Of a DNA stretch of 64,000 nucleotides, positions 2,086-57,621 are shown one piece after another. Location: IMG/VR virus record IMGVR_UViG_2639762987_000002. One strand, given 5' to 3'. A model generated the notes under the pieces. The model worked only from the letters and a program-made list of their open reading frames with translations. It did not search any database and was not told the origin of the DNA. How positions within the stretch are numbered: position 1 is the stretch's first letter; every line of letters begins with the position of its first letter. Origin of the DNA: a virus. Its lineage: Duplodnaviria > Heunggongvirae > Uroviricota > Caudoviricetes. A program made the position numbers and the translations under genes.

Positions 2086-2820
2086 ATGAAAAAGTTGAAA
2101 AGTTTAGAAATCCCTGGGACTGGTTATAAATTCTTTATGGACAACGCGGAGTGTGCGCCTAACGCGTTGGAAAAAATACAAAGTCTTATCAACAGCCTTA
2201 CTGAAGAAGCGAAAGAACTGAAGAGCGAGGCGACAAAGGACAATACAGCTAAAATCCAATGCTTAAATCTCGTTTCTTATTGTTTATATCAAGTGTCCAA
2301 GACACTGATTAAAGGCAATATCTATTACGACGATGAAGACACCTCGACACCTGAAGAAAAAGATAGCGATGAAGAACTCTATGAAGATATCTCTACCAGT
2401 GCGGGTCATGCTGCCTTCGATGCTATGGGTGAATCGTCAGGCATCAGATCGTTTGTTGAACAGAACAATTCGACAATAATGATTGAGTACTGTGAACAAA
2501 CAAGCTCCAAGGCCATACATGTTCTTCACGATGTTGCTGCAGGGGTTCGCTGTGAGGCTGAAGCGGTCAGAAAAGATGTATTTGGTGCAGACAGTAATAC
2601 CGTGAAAGCGTTCATCAACAGTGCTCTGCTAAATTCTTACTCAAACCTTATCGTCAATGCGGCACTATGCGCGAATTCAGGTGAAGAACACATTGTCATA
2701 ACTGAAACCAAACATGAGCATCAACAGTCACCAACCATAGAAGAGGTAACTGCATTGGCTATCAAACAGGCGAGTGAAATTAGTGATGAAATTCTCTCTC
2801 TGCTAAACAAAACTATGTAA
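2086..2820 (+). CDS. hypothetical acidic early protein (244 aa)
   Basis: ORF; Asp/Glu-rich stretch (YYDDEDTSTPEEKDSDEELYED). Confidence 0.55.
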   Translation: MKKLKSLEIPGTGYKFFMDNAECAPNALEKIQSLINSLTEEAKELKSEATKDNTAKIQCLNLVSYCLYQVSKTLIKGNIYYDDEDTSTPEEKDSDEELYEDISTSAGHAAFDAMGESSGIRSFVEQNNSTIMIEYCEQTSSKAIHVLHDVAAGVRCEAEAVRKDVFGADSNTVKAFINSALLNSYSNLIVNAALCANSGEEHIVITETKHEHQQSPTIEEVTALAIKQASEISDEILSLLNKTM

Positions 2821-2930
2821 AACATTGATAATGGCGGTCACAATTTGATTCTTTTCTATAAGAATCCGTTGATCGCCACTACTCCCCTTCCATAGCTGCA
2901 ATCATATCTTTAAATATCAATAGGTTATGG

Positions 2931-3700
2931 TTGTTTATACAAATAAGAAAACAACTAAATAACAGATCAACGAAACGTCAACGCTTTCACCCGATTTGGT
3001 CTAAAAAATTGACGTTTTCACACATCACTTCTTATACCCGTAACTCTACGCAGCAGACAGCGCCACAGCGTCCAATTTTCACCACAGACGACCCAACACA
3101 CTACCAACAAAAACACACGCTCAAAATCGCTCCCGTTGCGTTACACAACCATATAAACAACTTATTTTCAGGCATAACAAAACAACTAAATAACACACAT
3201 GCCATTCCCAAAAACAACCAACCTCTTTATGGCAGGCTACCGAAAAGACCCACCTCTTCTCCCCAGGCTACCGGACAACCAACCTAACTTTCACAGGCAA
3301 TCCGAAAACATTCATACGCGCGATACCCACGACACGCCATTCCCCAAACAGCGAAGAAACACCAGAATCACTGAAACCCCAACGAAGCCTGTAACCGCAA
3401 GGATTCTCTCAATCCCAAAAGACACGAAACATAACAATCACGGGAAATGCCATTACCCAATACACGAATAACTACAAAAGCCTTTCACACACTCCAGACA
3501 AACAACTCAAACACAATAACGAAAGGAATCGCCCACCTGCCATTACTCCATACACGGAGAAGAACAATCACCAAAACGACGAGAACACCCCATAGAAGAA
3601 CCACCGCAAAACGAACGAAACCACATACACCGACAGAGAAAACAACACACCCAATTCACCAACAGAAATAGTCGCCGTATAGAACATTCTGGAAGGAGTG
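2931..3700. repeat. Non-coding CA-rich, G- and T-depleted region with four GCCATTMCC-type direct repeats
   Basis: Top strand roughly 40% A, 40% C, 10% G, 10% T by hand count of one 60-nt line; only low-complexity ORFs; repeats near 3200, 3337, 3448, 3539. Confidence 0.6.
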
Positions 3701-54837: not shown

Positions 54838-55615
54838 AAACATATTGATAAGTATTTACTTACTTATCTTTTGTGTATAAGATGACTTTGTTTTCGTTGA
54901 GACGCGACTGTTTGAACTTAAATACAAGTGCAAACGAAGAAGTCTATCTGGCAGTAGCCTAATAAGCCAAACACCAGCGAGGTCAGTTTCCAGCCTCGTT
55001 ACCGAAATGGGACACACTGAGCGAGTGTGATTGCAGAACGCAGGAGGGAACATTCATGTTCCCTCCGATGAAGTAACAGAATGGGCGGTTGGTATATTTT
55101 CAACTCCATATGACTCCCGGATTCTTAGCCACTGACCGCCCATCCTGTTACGTCATTTTGTTCAATTATGTCGTTTATACTGGGTTAAAAAGCGGCGACG
55201 TAGCCCGGCTGGTATGGTTAGCCAGCACACAACGTTGAGGCCATTACATTTTTATCAATTCTAAGGTTCTATTCACAGAGATACCGGCGAGCGTTGATAT
55301 GTAACATGTTGGGCAAACATTCAATCGGAGTAGTGGCCTCAACGTTGTGAAGACGGGATTGTTGTGTAGGTTTAACCACTGTTGCCATTGGTGCCTGTTT
55401 TCACAACAAATGATTCCATACATCACATTGTATAAATTACAAAGTAGGTGCTGTCCTCAGAAACATCATCTACTTAAAGATTTTGCCTTCTACTATTGAG
55501 CGAAGTCGAAAGCGTCTGGCACTAACGAAAAGTGCAAGTAGCGGTGCGTTTCCTGGCAGAAACTAAACCGTCGCGATTGGCACTGTTGAGTAATAAATAC
55601 TGGCAGTGCTGAATT

Positions 55616-55690
55616 GATGGTGTAGCTCAGCGGTAGAGCAGTTGGCTGTTAACCAACTGGTCGGTGGTTCGAATCCACCCACCATCGCCA
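55616..55690 (+). tRNA. tRNA-Asn (anticodon GTT)
   Basis: Hand-folded cloverleaf: acceptor gatggtg/caccatc, anticodon loop ctGTTaa, T-loop ttcgaat, encoded CCA. Confidence 0.85.
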
Positions 55691-55695
55691 ATTTA

Positions 55696-55782
55696 GGGGA
55701 GTTAGTCCGTAGAGGTAGCGGTGTAGACTGTAAATCTACTGTCATGGCGACTCGGGTGGTTCGACTCCATCACTCCCCACCA
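55696..55782 (+). tRNA. tRNA-Tyr (anticodon GTA), long variable arm
   Basis: Acceptor ggggagt/actcccc, anticodon stem-loop gtaga-ctGTAaa-tctac, 87 nt, encoded CCA. Confidence 0.8.
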
Positions 55783-55786
55783 AATT

Positions 55787-55862
55787 GCCGGTTTAGCTCA
55801 GTTGGTAGAGCGCCTGCCTTGTAAGCAGGATGTCAGCGGTTCGAGTCCGTTAACCGGCACCA
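55787..55862 (+). tRNA. tRNA-Thr (anticodon TGT)
   Basis: Acceptor gccggtt/aaccggc, D-arm gctcagttggtagagc, anticodon loop ctTGTaa, encoded CCA. Confidence 0.85.
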
Positions 55863-56079
55863 ACACAACAGGAAAGAGCATTGAAAACCGCCGAGACTGC
55901 CCTGTTTTAAGCGTAAGTCCGTGCAAACGTCATACAGTGCTCTTTTCGTTGTGGTTGATGCGCAGACTGATGCGCGGAAAGAAATGCCCCAGCGACACAC
56001 GAGGCGAGTTCACACACTGCAATGCAGTCAGTAGCCGGGGTCGCTAAGCCGGAGATCAGTACCGGTAACCACAACAATT

Positions 56080-56166
56080 GGAGAGTAGGGAGCATGGTGC
56101 TCAAGCGGTCTTGAAAACCGTCCCATTGTGCAAACGATGATGGTTCGATTCCATTACTCTCCGCCA
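56080..56166 (+). tRNA. tRNA-Ser (anticodon TGA), long variable arm
   Basis: Acceptor ggagagt/actctcc, anticodon loop ctTGAaa, 87 nt, encoded CCA. Confidence 0.8.
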
Positions 56167-56278
56167 GACACAGCGTTGAGCGGTTTGGCCTTTTAATCAA
56201 CTCGATTAAGACTCCGCTAACATAAACCAGACCGCTCAACGCTGTGATAGATAATTACGGCAGACGTTCTTAACCATA

Positions 56279-56346
56279 GCTTGCTAACATCCTAGCAACA
56301 CTTTTTTCAGCGCAAAATTCAAAGGGGCTTCGGCCCCTTTTTTGTT
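56279..56346 (+). terminator. Two tandem Rho-independent terminators after the tRNA cluster
   Basis: ttgctaacatcctagcaa plus cactttttt, then ggggcttcggcccc plus ttttttt. Confidence 0.8.
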
Positions 56347-56358
56347 GAACAGTGCAAT

Positions 56359-57621
56359 TTACTTTGCATAGTCGCCCAATTTTAATATTTCGCGCTTATA
56401 TTCATTAACCATGCTACTGGATTCAGTATAAATTCGATTTAAAAGATTATCGTTATCTTTATTTTCATTTATCTTAATTAGTGCTAATTTATATTCATAG
56501 TCATCAAATGCCACAATTAAATGGTGGCCTGGGATTATATCTTCGTCACTCTTAAAGTATATATCTTCAAGTATGTAATCTAGTTGATTAGATTTTCTTT
56601 TCTCGATGTAATCTTCAGCCATAGCTATTACATCATTCCTGTCATTTAACCTGTTTTTTTCGGAAGGCACATCTTCGTAATGTTGCACGATTGAACAACC
56701 AATAAGGCGTGGGATGTAAACGTCAAAATGAGTAACTCTATCATTCGCGGTTTTAAGTAGTTCCTCAAAGTAGTTTCTTACATGTAAAGGCAACTTCTCA
56801 AAGTAATCATTAATTATAGGAGAACAAGGAGTTTTATAATTCATAAGAACCGACGGTACGAGCTTTGGGTGTCGAAACATCCAGTCCCTTTTAACGTCCG
56901 ATGGAACATAATAACTTTTAATGATATTATCAAAATAATTTATCATTCGAGATTTGAATATTTTGTTGAATCTAAGGTTTATGAATGTATCCAGATAAGG
57001 CATATTTGAATAAGCATCATCAAAAAATATTTCTTCATTGAAGAAATCATATTTATTTAATAAATAAAACAGTTTTTCCGAATTAATATGTTCACAATAA
57101 TCGATTTTTAATCCAAAGATAGCAATGATCAACTTCATCTGAGGTGGGATTTTAAAAATTAATTGTGACACATACGCTCTTTTTTCCTTGAGACATTCCC
57201 CATCAATATAAAATGAACCATCCACATACTCAAATATATTAATAATATGCTTCACATACTGTATTACCTCATGCTGTCTTACCAATGGATAATATAGTCT
57301 ATGTAACTCATCGCTGTTTAAATTAATTTTGTGTTTATCGATAATTTGTTTTGCAAGAAGACATAACTCATCATGTTGATTTAATAAGGAATCAAACCAT
57401 TGTTTAAATGCACTCTTTCGCATTTCGAACAATGATTCAGTTGTTAATTGAAGGGCTGAAAAAGCCGCTTTTGCACTTTTTCTCGCTTCGTAGGCATTCC
57501 ATGCTGTTGCTATAAAAGCAAATGCTGTAGCCAATGTTCCAACAGTTTGACCATTTAAAACAACCCAATCCCAAAAAATGACGGTGAGCAGTAGTATAAT
57601 AATGAAAATTAAAAAAGGCAT
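56359..57621 (-). CDS. AT-rich membrane-anchored protein of unknown function (420 aa)
   Basis: Visibly AT-rich versus neighbours; N-terminal hydrophobic helices (FLIFIIILLLTVIFWDWVV, TLATAFAFIATAW); no catalytic motif recognised. Confidence 0.7.
   Translation of the reverse strand: MPFLIFIIILLLTVIFWDWVVLNGQTVGTLATAFAFIATAWNAYEARKSAKAAFSALQLTTESLFEMRKSAFKQWFDSLLNQHDELCLLAKQIIDKHKINLNSDELHRLYYPLVRQHEVIQYVKHIINIFEYVDGSFYIDGECLKEKRAYVSQLIFKIPPQMKLIIAIFGLKIDYCEHINSEKLFYLLNKYDFFNEEIFFDDAYSNMPYLDTFINLRFNKIFKSRMINYFDNIIKSYYVPSDVKRDWMFRHPKLVPSVLMNYKTPCSPIINDYFEKLPLHVRNYFEELLKTANDRVTHFDVYIPRLIGCSIVQHYEDVPSEKNRLNDRNDVIAMAEDYIEKRKSNQLDYILEDIYFKSDEDIIPGHHLIVAFDDYEYKLALIKINENKDNDNLLNRIYTESSSMVNEYKREILKLGDYAK

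What the first reader, a model, noticed from the sequence alone, without database searches (positions are those of the whole stretch)
54860..56250. Structured non-coding RNA candidates flanking the tRNA cluster
Upstream of the tRNAs lie a perfect 10-bp-stem hairpin (55043-55066), a 59-nt element closed by a 7-bp terminal stem gggcggt/accgccc (55083-55141), and a perfect 16-bp inverted repeat cacaacgttgaggcca/tggcctcaacgttgtg enclosing ~90 nt (55228-55349). A 20-bp stem with one G-U position starts 3 nt after tRNA-Ser (56169-56246), and ~217 nt between tRNA-Thr and tRNA-Ser are also non-coding. These could be small RNAs, tRNA-like decoys or processing elements.
Basis: seen in the sequence. Interest (0 to 1): 0.5.

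Follow-up and report, generated by a model that had tools for sequence, protein, structure and literature searches.

The report
Phage RNA that mimics and targets tmRNA
The hairpins beside this phage-plasmid's tRNA genes are real, and the RNA upstream of them carries a start-less ten-codon "degradation tag" like the bacterial ribosome-rescue RNA (tmRNA), has no tRNA-like end of its own, and begins with a stretch complementary to the host tmRNA, which suggests that phages reprogram or block host ribosome rescue.

Summary
All five sequence observations are confirmed, and the structures are far more stable than shuffled sequence. The window is an SSU5-type phage-plasmid of E. coli.

Window 54890-55055 belongs to a large, unannotated phage RNA family (covariance model 112.8 bits, E 9e-25). 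The family occurs in 691 phage records, including FelixO1, Vi01-like phages and HK620, and in pMT1.

Its anatomy:
- **Leader:** a 5' leader antisense to host tmRNA across the resume codon. All 33 representatives dock on the same tmRNA site.
- **Tag ORF:** a 10-codon ssrA-like tag with no start codon (here ANEEVYLAVA, 54930-54962) and synonymous variation between alleles.
- **Structure:** a covarying H-type pseudoknot and hairpins.
- **No tRNA-like domain:** none is detectable.

The other long hairpins share CACAAC...GTTGTG ends and are optional modules. The Thr-Ser spacer is a long hairpin plus a cloverleaf-like module.

Best mechanism (inferred): the RNA anneals to host tmRNA, masks its tag template and supplies its own. 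I found no description of this, apart from ARAGORN "ssrA" calls in FelixO1-like phages.

The parts
54847..54883 (+). Putative sigma-70 promoter (-35 TTTACT 54855-54860, 17 nt, -10 TAAGAT 54878-54883) overlapped by an inverted repeat, GATAAGTA..TACTTATC
   Evidence: Read from the sequence and conserved in homologs. The inverted repeat changes on both arms in the CP102 group (AGGTA/TACCT). The consensus scanner did not call a promoter at its threshold. Family-2 members have a clear TTGACA-17-TAGATT at the same place. This part is inferred.
54890..54913 (+). Leader antisense to host tmRNA. Box 1, GTTTTCGTTG (54890-54899), pairs with tmRNA nt 95-104. Box 2, GCGACTGTTT (54904-54913), pairs with tmRNA nt 82-91, which covers U85/A86 and the first two bases of the resume codon
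   Evidence: RNAduplex against E. coli K-12 ssrA gives 10 + 10 bp at -26.3 kcal/mol, and all 33 family representatives dock on the same tmRNA site. Pairing in trans is stronger than with the RNA's own tag region in 33 of 33. GTTTTC is invariant and GCGA nearly so in alignment A2.
54914..54929 (+). A/U-rich stretch just before the resume codon (CAAGU|GCA here, UAACU or UAAAU in relatives)
   Evidence: ARAGORN recognises it as a 'resume consensus sequence'. Indels here shift the upstream frame between homologs, so no start codon is conserved in frame.
54930..54965 (+). Start-less tag reading frame GCA AAC GAA GAA GTC TAT CTG GCA GTA GCC TAA TAA = ANEEVYLAVA**
   Evidence: It draws weak Rfam tmRNA hits. 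Seven peptide variants occur in this family and 14 in leader-ascertained relatives, all but one being 10 codons plus a stop. In this family codons 1, 2 and 6-10 change at third positions only.
54977..55012 (+). H-type pseudoknot PKa: S1 (G)CGAGG 54977-54982 with CCTCG(T) 54994-54999; S2 loop TTCCA 54988-54992 with TGGGA 55008-55012
   Evidence: Fully complementary haplotypes for both stems are seen across families. Formal pair counts support S1.
55013..55029 (+). Hairpin H2: CACACT-GAGCG-AGTGTG
   Evidence: Compensatory variants include CAGACT/AGTCTG and CGCAG/GCTGTG. A second pseudoknot from its loop is well supported in families 2 and 3 but not in this family, where only 3 bp can form.
55043..55066 (+).
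   Evidence: z -5.2. 22 sequence variants in 120 loci fold at the same place, nearly all as hairpins, despite different sequence and length.
55068..55156 (+).
   Evidence: z -5.9. Arms were recovered in 113 of 120 loci, with compensatory changes such as CAGG/CCTG to CGAG/CTCG and GGGCGG/CCGCCC to GGACGG/CCGTCC.
55183..55226 (+). Two conserved hairpins, GGGTT..AGCCC and GGCTGG..CCAGC, that end the block conserved across genera
   Evidence: The block is conserved at about 80% identity from E. coli to Klebsiella, Salmonella, Yersinia, Cronobacter and Enterobacter.
55228..55349 (+).
   Evidence: z -6.7. The arms covary (GAGGCC/GGCCTC versus GAGACC/GGTCTC). The interior is inverted in L060 and the whole element is precisely absent in L100.
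55350..55615 (+). Structured spacer leading to tRNA-Asn, including a domain closed by TTGTTGTG/CACAACAA (55359-55408)
   Evidence: MFE structure. It is conserved in SSU5-type relatives, with covarying hairpins seen by eye.
55616..55862 (+). tRNA-Asn (55616-55690), tRNA-Tyr (55696-55782), tRNA-Thr (55787-55862)
   Evidence: ARAGORN and Rfam.
55866..55953 (+). Long hairpin I4: CACAACAGGAAAGAGCA...TGCTCTTTTCGTTGTG
   Evidence: z -3.7. The same arms and the same interior allele directly follow the tag unit in lambdoid prophages L155 and L164.
55948..56075 (+). Cloverleaf-like four-way module: closing stem GTTGTGGTT/AACCACAAC, hairpin GCGCA-GACTGA-TGCGC, a variable arm, and hairpin GCCGG-AGATCAGTA-CCGGT. 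The two hairpin loops are complementary (ACTGA/TCAGT)
   Evidence: The MFE structure is this four-way junction. There are 16 distinct instances in the held loci. Compensatory changes occur in the closing stem (GGTG/CACC to GGTT/AACC), in both hairpins and in the loop-loop pair (GCTGA/TCAGC to ACTGA/TCAGT).
56080..56166 (+). tRNA-Ser (UGA)
   Evidence: ARAGORN. Rfam scores it at 44.8 bits against the related tRNA-Sec model.
56169..56246 (+).
   Evidence: z -9.9. It shares its end sequence, CACAGCGTTGAG, with I2.
56321..56348 (+). Intrinsic terminator closing the RNA/tRNA cluster
   Evidence: Terminator scan: 8-bp GC-rich stem followed by a T run.

Best explanation
Region 54850-56350 is one non-coding RNA/tRNA cluster of an SSU5-type phage-plasmid.

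**What the first unit is.** The unit at about 54890-55225 belongs to a widespread family of tmRNA-derived phage RNAs that lack a tRNA-like domain. It has three parts:
- A 5' leader complementary to the host tmRNA. The target is the single-stranded stretch that holds the resume codon and the first tag codons.
- Its own resume context and a start-less 10-codon ssrA-like tag with a stop codon.
- A pseudoknot and several hairpins.

**Proposed mechanism.** The leader anneals to host tmRNA and masks the host resume signal (U85/A86, G90-C91) and codons 2-5. The host molecule still provides the alanine-charged tRNA-like domain and SmpB. The tethered phage RNA offers its own resume codon and tag. Rescued proteins would then receive the phage-specified tag (A-ANEEVYLAVA) instead of A-ANDENYALAA.

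**The other structures.** Hairpins H3 and I1 are conserved structural parts of this RNA. The long hairpins I2, I3 and I4 and the cloverleaf-like module in the Thr-Ser spacer are optional, shuffled modules of the same phage tRNA-cluster repertoire. They most likely act as processing or stabilising elements.

**Shown here:** family membership, the start-less tag under coding constraint, covarying structure, the lack of a tRNA-like domain, and complementarity to tmRNA.

**Inferred:** transcription start, pairing in vivo, use of the phage tag, and the role of the modules.
For: **Family membership.**
- The covariance model hits window 54890-55055 at 112.8 bits, E 9e-25, with one hit in each of 100 sources.
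- The family is present in 691 phage records and in 245 of 5426 complete E. coli genomes. Almost none of these places is annotated.

**Tag reading frame.**
- Leader-ascertained and flank-ascertained sets give 47 distinct alleles. Forty-six encode a 10-residue [A/T]N... peptide ending in AA or VA, followed by a stop.
- The stop varies between TAA, TAG and TGA.
- In this family, codons 1, 2 and 6-10 vary only at third positions (0/0/4).
- The alternative frame takes nonsense and missense changes (reasoned).
- Between the upstream in-frame stop and GCA there is no AUG, GUG or UUG in SSU5-type and family-2 members (read from the sequences).
- ARAGORN recognises the resume consensus. tmRNA models give only weak partial hits on the tag.

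**Structure.**
- S1 and H2 are 98.2% paired. Seven of 11 pairs change on both sides, 0 of 500 shuffles reach this, and slid controls pair at 26-59%.
- Pseudoknot stems show multiple compensating haplotypes.

**Antisense leader.**
- The best duplex of each of the 33 representatives with the 363-nt E. coli tmRNA always ends at nt 105 and covers the resume codon.
- In families 2 and 3, dG is about -36 to -47 kcal/mol, and most representatives are reached by 0 of 60 shuffles.
- Pairing with tmRNA is about twice as strong as with the RNA's own tag region in 33 of 33.
- FelixO1 and Moogle show the same target.
- The boxes are invariant while the RNA's own tag codons vary.

**No tRNA-like domain:**
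Against: - **No expression data.** No RNA or protein data could be examined, so transcription, 5' end, pairing with tmRNA and use of the tag are all untested.
- **Weak energy signal in this family.** In the window's own family the complementarity is 20 bp (-26.3 kcal/mol). By energy alone it is not significant against mononucleotide shuffles tested on the whole tmRNA (8 of 60 shuffles as good, z -1.2). The case rests on the consistent target site, the conservation pattern and homology to families with 40-bp complementarity.
- **Families 2 and 3 must open a host structure.** Their pairing would require opening tmRNA pseudoknot PK1.
- **Possible relic.** The antisense segment could be left over from an inverted duplication of a captured tmRNA fragment.
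- **Unclear benefit.** The phage tags still look like ClpXP degrons, so the gain from swapping tags is not obvious.
- **No precedent.** No ribosome is known to resume on a template held to tmRNA only by base pairing of this kind.
- **Unexplained modules.** Flanking modules with tRNA-like features exist (a canonical T-arm in some lambdoid members) and their role is not explained.
Confidence: 0.5

Rival explanations
1. **Antisense inhibitor or sponge only.** The RNA pairs with host tmRNA, possibly triggering RNase III cleavage, to block tagging or all trans-translation during phage growth. The tag-like part would be a structural or decoy remnant that is not translated. It might bind S1, SmpB or RNase R.
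For: The complementarity is the same as in the main explanation. There is a precedent: the TLD-only tmRNA fragment of mycobacteriophage DS6A, or a similar molecule, inhibits tmRNA (PMC4131195; PMC11915505). The 20-40 bp duplexes would be RNase III substrates (established knowledge).
Against: A decoy gives no reason to keep exactly 10 sense codons plus a stop. It does not explain the synonymous-only variation in the conserved codons, the interchangeable stop codons, or the ssrA-type C-terminus across 47 alleles. It also does not explain keeping the A at -4 and U/C at -5 before GCA.
Confidence: 0.22
2. **Self-sufficient non-canonical tmRNA.** One of the neighbouring tRNA-like modules serves as the acceptor domain, in one piece or in two pieces held by the long hairpin arms. 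Candidates are the cloverleaf-like module, long hairpins with a T-arm, or an adjacent tRNA. The RNA would then rescue ribosomes on its own.
For: Lambdoid members carry long hairpins whose interior has a canonical T-arm (AGGGTTCGAATCCCT), and a four-way module follows the tag unit. Because the hairpin arms are repeated, the arms flanking the tag unit can also pair with each other and close it as P2 does in tmRNA (by inspection). Two-piece tmRNAs exist in nature (PMC4131195).
Against: - No module is present in all members. SSU5, CP102-type and promoter-proximal siphophage versions lack an upstream arm, and many members have no tRNA within 2.5 kb.
- No acceptor stem with G3:U70 plus an ACCA 3' end was found.
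- In lambdoid members the unit ends in a terminator, not in CCA.
- This rival does not explain the invariant antisense boxes.
Confidence: 0.1
3. **Ordinary spacers.** The hairpins and spacers are only processing or stability signals and recombination debris of a phage tRNA cluster. The tag-like frame and the tmRNA complementarity are then a non-functional relic of a captured ssrA fragment.
For: The long hairpins are optional, shuffled and once inverted. tRNA fragments litter related clusters. In this window the energy signal of the duplex is modest.
Against: - The unit is conserved across very different phage types and genera while its surroundings are not.
- Structure covaries, the tag behaves as coding and the leader boxes are invariant. 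All of this points to purifying selection.
- The unit also stands alone without tRNAs, between Q and the lysis genes of HK620-like phages.
Confidence: 0.08
4. **Conventional small gene.** The tag frame is a conventionally translated small protein gene, or part of one.
For: In the window itself an in-frame TTG lies six codons upstream. An overlapping frame starts with GTG, ATG or CTG in different members (reasoned).
Against: Indels upstream shift the frame between close homologs, and an in-frame stop with no start codon precedes GCA in SSU5-type and family-2 members. There is no Shine-Dalgarno sequence. Substitutions that are silent in the tag frame are missense or nonsense in the overlapping frame. 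The other frames carry internal stops in most alleles.
Confidence: 0.03

Closest known systems
tmRNA (SsrA; Rfam RF00023 and the permuted two-piece forms RF01849, RF01850, RF04321)
   Same: It has a start-less reading frame beginning GCA AAC GA. The frame encodes a 10-residue AN[D/E]...[L/M/V]A[A/V]A tag and is followed by a stop. The context before the resume codon is A-rich, with A at -4. Pseudoknots follow the tag. ARAGORN recognises its resume consensus, and the tmRNA models give partial hits on the tag.
   Different: There is no tRNA-like domain: no acceptor stem with G3:U70, no CCA end and no T-arm in the conserved unit. All Rfam scores are far below gathering (11-25 bits against 47-84). 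The RNA carries a 5' segment antisense to tmRNA itself, which no tmRNA has.
TLD-only tmRNA fragment of mycobacteriophage DS6A, and full tmRNAs of Bxz1-like mycobacteriophages and Bacillus phage G (PMC4131195, PMC11915505)
   Same: These are phage-borne derivatives of tmRNA. In DS6A only one of the two functional halves is kept, and that half is thought to interfere with the host system.
   Different: This is the complementary half: the message is kept and the tRNA-like part is missing. It has an antisense handle. Its hosts are Enterobacterales and it occurs in many unrelated phage types.
5'-seed trans-acting small RNAs, including phage PR'-derived ones such as StxS (recalled from memory, not checked here)
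   Same: A short conserved segment at or near the 5' end of the RNA is complementary to a single-stranded stretch of a host RNA. In HK620-like phages the unit lies in the PR' late leader.
   Different: The predicted target is tmRNA rather than an mRNA. The RNA is several hundred nucleotides long, with a coding-like module. Hfq dependence is unknown.
Stable RNAs of unknown function in phage tRNA clusters (T4 species 1 and 2 RNAs; recalled from memory)
   Same: These are structured non-tRNA RNAs co-located, and presumably co-transcribed, with phage tRNAs.
   Different: No sequence relation was tested. The modules here have defined repeated ends (CACAAC/GTTGTG) and a tmRNA-related partner.

Membership tests
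tmRNA (one-piece, RF00023) | tRNA-like domain: 5' and 3' ends forming an acceptor stem with G3:U70, discriminator A, a CCA end and a T-arm | tested here: not met
   ARAGORN at default settings makes no tmRNA call in the window or in 7 + 15 + 121 related loci. Its low-threshold proposals use AT-rich or coding sequence that is not conserved. The G-U in the 7-bp stem alternates with G-C and A-U, and the stem is part of a 25-bp helix.
tmRNA (one-piece, RF00023) | Score at or above the curated Rfam gathering threshold | tested here: not met
   No tmRNA family reaches gathering in the window. Partial hits score 11-25 bits against thresholds of 47-84.
tmRNA (any form) | mRNA-like domain: a resume codon without a start codon, and a short frame encoding a C-terminal degron ending in hydrophobic/Ala residues, then a stop | tested here: met
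   46 of 47 distinct alleles have 10 codons plus a stop, and there is a coding-type substitution pattern.
tmRNA (any form) | Pseudoknot(s) flanking the tag frame | tested here: met
   PKa lies directly after the tag, with compensating haplotypes in both stems. A second pseudoknot is supported in families 2 and 3 only.
Two-piece (permuted) tmRNA (RF01849, RF01850, RF04321) | An acceptor piece (T-arm, 3' acceptor strand, CCA) encoded upstream of the coding piece, which starts with the 5' acceptor strand | tested here: not met
   In the window, a protein gene and a promoter lie directly upstream. The ARAGORN 'permuted tmRNA' in phage Moogle joins a stray tRNA 3' half to part of tRNA-Lys. Lambdoid members have a T-arm upstream, but no acceptor strand plus CCA follows it.
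Trans-acting antisense RNA against tmRNA (proposed class) | Conserved complementarity to an accessible region of the target | tested here: met
   All 33 representatives dock at tmRNA nt 54/82-105. Trans pairing exceeds cis in 33 of 33. In the window, 10 + 10 bp fall on nt 82-104, which is single-stranded in E. coli tmRNA (the structure is established knowledge).
Trans-acting antisense RNA against tmRNA (proposed class) | Physical interaction and an effect on the target in vivo | not testable with these tools
   This needs RIL-seq or CLASH, pull-downs, and compensatory mutagenesis.
   ARAGORN and Rfam make no call even at E up to 10. The interior is not conserved apart from CCCGG. The helix continues for 25 bp.
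MITE-like or invertible DNA element (for I2, I3, I4) | Terminal inverted repeats, target-site duplication, presence/absence polymorphism, and a cognate transposase or invertase | tested here: inconclusive
   Inverted repeats and a precise absence (L100) are seen. However, the 8-bp 'duplication' CAACGTTG is itself a palindrome within the repeat. The interior is inverted in only 1 of 26 distinct interiors. No recombinase was linked to it.

The most novel reading that the evidence does not exclude
Many enterobacterial phages and phage-plasmids would encode a 'tag-swap' RNA. The carriers include SSU5, pMT1 of Y. pestis, pHCM2-type plasmids, FelixO1, Vi01-like phages and HK620/P22-like phages. The RNA is a message-only half of tmRNA that docks by base pairing onto the host tmRNA. 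It covers the host resume codon and makes rescued ribosomes translate a phage-specified tag. This would be the first case of a parasite RNA reprogramming the template of trans-translation, and the first functional tmRNA assembled from a host molecule and a viral one.
Probability: 0.35. Interest if true: 0.95.

Novelty: new variant of a known kind. Interest (0 to 1): 0.85.

Why it matters
tmRNA-SmpB is the main ribosome-rescue system of bacteria. It is an antibiotic target, and phages such as lambda-P22 hybrids and Mu are known to depend on it.

Here a conserved and very common phage RNA carries the message half of tmRNA plus a handle complementary to the host tmRNA. It occurs in hundreds of sequenced phages, in about 4.5% of complete E. 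coli genomes, and in pMT1. It had gone unannotated.

If it works as proposed, phages can choose the tag, and so the fate, of every rescued protein in the infected cell. It would also show that a working tmRNA can be assembled in trans.

Even if it only inhibits tmRNA, it is a new anti-host RNA. It deserves an Rfam family, and ARAGORN's spurious 'ssrA' calls in phage genomes should be corrected.

The idea is directly testable with existing strains such as HK620, FelixO1 and SSU5-type plasmids.

Tried and rejected
**Ideas tested and rejected**
- **The 7-bp stem as an alanine acceptor.** The stem 55083-55141 has G3:U70 plus A73 in SSU5 and pMT1. I rejected it: the pair alternates G-U, G-C and A-U, the helix runs for 25 bp, and the tail is AUCC.
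- **A hidden tRNA-like domain.** ARAGORN at lowered thresholds proposes only non-conserved junk. Rfam at E up to 10 on the window and on a lambdoid member gives only tag-centred partial hits.
- **Long-range pairing of the leader GUUUUCGUU with the loop UAACGAAAA near 55524.** The central loop base varies (A, U, G, C) without any compensation in the leader.
- **Cis pairing of the leader with the RNA's own tag region.** It is about half as stable as pairing with host tmRNA, and the RNA's own tags vary while the boxes do not.
- **I2 as an active invertible switch.** Only 1 of 26 distinct interiors is inverted.
- **The cloverleaf-like module as an acceptor.** It has no G3:U70 and no conserved CCA.
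- **The ARAGORN 'tmRNA' in phage Moogle.** Its two tRNA-domain halves are unrelated tRNA pieces.

**Things that led nowhere**
- **Wasted scan.** My single genome-contig scan used the wrong spacer (N9 instead of N7). It returned three irrelevant metagenome-assembled genomes.
- **Uninformative computations.** RNAduplex on whole cores against the whole tmRNA told nothing, and one script timed out.
- **Column-wise counting of the pseudoknot stems.** The two families pair in registers that differ by one column, so I used register-aware tables instead.
- **Literature.** Ten full-text searches found no description of the element.
Full report
**1. Where the window comes from**

BLAST places the region in SSU5-type phage-plasmids of E. 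coli. It is 100% identical to plasmid NZ_CP031136 and about 98% identical to phage Cyrano/pLF82. Upstream lie a DNA ligase and small ORFs. Downstream lie an unknown 420-aa gene on the minus strand, a glutaredoxin and an integrase. ARAGORN finds four tRNAs:
- Asn, 55616-55690
- Tyr, 55696-55782
- Thr, 55787-55862
- Ser, 56080-56166

At curated thresholds Rfam sees only tRNAs.

**2. The observation**

The structures are much more stable than dinucleotide shuffles:
- Hairpin 55043-55066: z -5.2
- Inverted repeat 55228-55349: z -6.7
- Stem 56169-56246: z -9.9

The 59-nt '7-bp' element is only modestly unusual alone (z -2.2). It is the tip of a 25-bp helix, 55068-55156 (z -5.9). A fourth long hairpin, 55866-55953, fills the first part of the 217-nt Thr-Ser spacer. 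The whole non-coding stretches fold with z -6.5 and -5.9.

**3. Conservation**

The first ~400 nt after the upstream ORF (54848-55243) are about 80% identical in plasmids of Klebsiella, Salmonella, Enterobacter and Cronobacter, and in Y. pestis pMT1. No gene is annotated there.

In alignments, hairpin H3 keeps its place while its sequence and length change: there are 22 variants. Helix I1 shows compensatory changes. The arms of I2 covary.

I2 is nonetheless dispensable. It is precisely absent in L100, and its interior is inverted in L060. That is one of 26 distinct interiors, so it is not an active switch.

Cyrano lacks tRNA-Tyr and the Thr-Ser spacer. In pMT1 the F1 capsule locus follows directly after I2.

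**4. The unexpected part: a tmRNA-type tag**

Relaxed Rfam searches gave weak hits of two tmRNA models on 54838-55013. These led to the frame GCA AAC GAA GAA GTC TAT CTG GCA GTA GCC TAA TAA (54930-54965), which encodes ANEEVYLAVA.

Homologs encode ANEDTYLAVA, ANEDAYLAVA, ANEDSYLAVA, ANDNQYLAVA and ANDTQYLAVA. Synonymous differences include TAT/TAC, CTG/CTA, GCA/GCT, GCC/GCT/GCG/GCA and ACG/ACA.

Indels just upstream shift the frame between homologs. In SSU5-type sequences an in-frame UGA is followed by no start codon before GCA. ARAGORN recognises the 'resume consensus'. The overlapping NUG frame takes missense and nonsense changes at the sites that are silent in the tag frame.

I avoided ascertainment bias in two ways. 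This family was collected by a downstream flank pattern, and a second family by a leader pattern.
- In the flank set, codons 1, 2 and 6-10 vary at 0, 0 and 4 sites by codon position.
- In the leader set, all 29 distinct alleles encode a 10-residue peptide plus a stop. There are 14 peptides, such as ANDDVVLMAA, ANDEQFLAVA, ANDDLMLMAA and ANDNAFRVAA.
- Stops are TAA, TAG or TGA, and the other frames are mostly closed.

A metagenome scan added ANDDLMMVAA, ANDTEFKVAA and ANEEAYLMVA.

**5. Structure after the tag**

An H-type pseudoknot follows the tag. Fully complementary haplotypes are seen for both stems:
- Stem 1: CGAGG/CCTCG, CAGGG/CCCTG, CAAGG/CCTTG, TGAGG/CCTCA and CGGGG/CCCCG
- Stem 2: TTCCA/TGGGA, CTCCA/TGGAG, CCGA/TCGG, CCAG/CTGG, CCAA/TTGG and GUCG/CGAC

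Hairpin H2 covaries. In families 2 and 3 its loop forms a second pseudoknot with many compensating variants, up to GGCGGGAG/CTCCCGCC. In the window's family only 3 bp are possible.

A covariance model built from 33 representatives finds one hit in each of 100 sources. The window hit is 54890-55055, 112.8 bits, E 9e-25. On that alignment the two nested helices are 98.2% paired. Seven of 11 pairs change on both sides, 0 of 500 shuffles reach this, and slid controls pair at 26-59%.

**6. Distribution**

- The family-2 core matches 691 phage records: Salmonella 262, Escherichia 196, Klebsiella 88 and Erwinia 43. They include FelixO1, Vi01-like phages, N4-like PhAPEC5 and Klebsiella siphophages. 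Almost none has a feature annotated under the match.
- In HK620 and related prophages the unit lies between antiterminator Q and the holin gene, inside the late leader between PR' and the annotated late terminator.
- 245 of 5426 complete E. coli genomes carry the window type, always on plasmids.
- Many members have no tRNA within 2.5 kb, so linkage to tRNAs is frequent but not obligatory.

**7. No tRNA-like domain**

ARAGORN calls no tmRNA in the window or in any related locus. Low-threshold proposals are not conserved.

An exhaustive ssrA survey of RefSeq plasmids and viruses found tmRNA only in mycobacteriophages among those records. It also named Bacillus phage G and the TLD-only DS6A from outside that dataset (PMC4131195).

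The genome announcement of FelixO1-like phage Moogle reports 'ssrA identified using ARAGORN' (PMC4319497). I reproduced that call. It is a 'permuted' construct whose two tRNA-domain halves are a stray tRNA 3' half and part of tRNA-Lys, assembled around this tag. ARAGORN calls no tmRNA in FelixO1 itself.

**8. The leader is antisense to host tmRNA**

A small-word BLAST of the cores against E. coli K-12 ssrA gave minus-strand matches. In tmRNA numbering, G90 is the first base of the resume codon.

In the window:
- 54890-54899 (GUUUUCGUUG) pairs with nt 95-104 (CGACGAAAAC, tag codons 2-5).
- 54904-54913 (GCGACUGUUU) pairs with nt 82-91 (AAAUAGUCGC). This includes U85/A86, which set the resume frame (established knowledge), and G90-C91.
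- A small internal loop lies between the two helices, and that is where the homologs vary.

In families 2 and 3 the complementarity runs from about nt 54 to 105, with dG about -36 to -47 kcal/mol, and most representatives are reached by 0 of 60 shuffles. For all 33 representatives, and for FelixO1 and Moogle, the best site on the 363-nt tmRNA is the same.

Pairing with the RNA's own tag region is about half as strong in 33 of 33. The boxes are invariant although the RNA's own codons 3-5 vary freely. That argues for a trans target.

For the window's family alone the energy is not significant (8 of 60 shuffles). The inference there rests on site consistency, the conservation pattern and homology.

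**9. Mechanism**

The simplest model that explains four facts together is a tag-swap RNA that uses the host tmRNA as its tRNA-like half. [quoted passage not shown]

A pure inhibitor is the main rival. A self-sufficient tmRNA using neighbouring tRNA-like modules is a weaker one. None of this can be decided without RNA and protein data.

**10. The remaining hairpins**

I2, I3 and I4 share end sequences (CACAACGTTGAG / CACAGCGTTGAG / CACAACAGG...CGTTGTG).

The I4 type recurs in Klebsiella siphophages and lambdoid prophages, often directly after the tag unit. Its interiors are interchangeable, and some contain a canonical T-arm. The window's I4 interior is the same allele as in L155 and L164.

The rest of the Thr-Ser spacer folds into a four-way junction. 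It is found in 16 variants, with compensatory changes in its closing stem, in both hairpins and between its two complementary loops. Because GTTGTG can pair with the CACAAC before it or after it, alternative folds are possible.

The function of these modules is unknown. I rank them as processing or stabilising modules of phage tRNA clusters.

**11. Verdict**

The finding is real. It led to a widespread tmRNA-derived phage RNA that, as far as ten full-text searches could show, has not been described.

Noticed in passing
L060 versus L089 (IMG/VR loci), homologous to window 55248-55329: The interior of the I2 inverted repeat is in the opposite orientation in L060 compared with its near relative L089 (59 shared 9-mers in reverse, 0 forward). 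This is the only inversion among 26 distinct interiors.
   Followed up: yes
L100 versus L090, homologous to window 55228-55349: The whole I2 hairpin is precisely absent in L100. The junction falls in CAACGTTG, a palindrome that occurs at both ends of the element. This could reflect either slippage deletion or an insertion with a duplicated target.
   Followed up: partly
window 54847-54868: An inverted repeat, GATAAGTA-N6-TACTTATC, overlaps the putative -35 region of the RNA's promoter. Both arms change together in the CP102 group (AGGTA/TACCT), as an operator would.
   Followed up: no
L359 (FelixO1, AF320576) about 1394-1475: About 75 nt after the tag unit lies a tRNA-like sequence that ARAGORN does not call. 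It has a 7-bp acceptor stem CGGGGCG/CGCCUCG with G3-U70, discriminator A and CCA, an anticodon-like arm with UCU, a T-arm, and no D-arm. Moogle has an ordinary tRNA-Arg(UCU) at that place.
   Followed up: partly
L358 (phage Moogle, NC_027293) 586-1334: The 'tmRNA/ssrA' reported for Moogle is an ARAGORN permuted call spanning three real tRNA genes. Its tRNA-domain halves are a stray tRNA 3' fragment and part of tRNA-Lys. Only the tag and the resume consensus are genuine.
   Followed up: yes
L159, L152 and L171 (lambdoid prophage contigs), just upstream or downstream of the tag unit: Some long hairpins of the I4 type enclose a small hairpin (GGCGA..TCGCC) plus a canonical T-arm (AGGGTTCGAATCCCT) next to the 3' arm. 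They look like tRNA-like RNAs with a very long 'acceptor' helix.
   Followed up: partly
window 55965-55970 and 56056-56060; family-2 equivalents: The loops of the two hairpins of the cloverleaf-like module are complementary to each other. The pair is ACUGA/UCAGU here and GCUGA/UCAGC in Klebsiella and lambdoid versions. This is a compensatory change that suggests a kissing-loop, elbow-like fold.
   Followed up: partly
L002 (Y. pestis pMT1, NC_004835) 2501-3020: In pMT1 the conserved RNA region is kept through the I2 hairpin. It is then followed directly by caf1R and the F1 capsule operon, in place of the tRNA cluster.
   Followed up: no
L236 (HK620, AF335538) 1189-1231 and 1290-1850: In HK620 the stretch annotated as 'qut' is a terminator-like hairpin about 50 nt after PR'. 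The tag unit and its modules lie between it and the annotated late terminator, so the unit would be transcribed mainly under Q antitermination.
   Followed up: no
L142 1386-1497: There is a sub-threshold Rfam hit to the Salmonella sRNA candidate STnc100 (34.8 bits against a gathering score of 47, E 4e-4). It lies about 640 nt downstream of a tag unit in a jumbo-phage-type tRNA cluster.
   Followed up: no
window 56359-57621 (minus strand): A 420-aa ORF next to the cluster terminator has no Pfam match. The equivalent position in relatives holds a similarly unannotated gene next to phoH.
   Followed up: no
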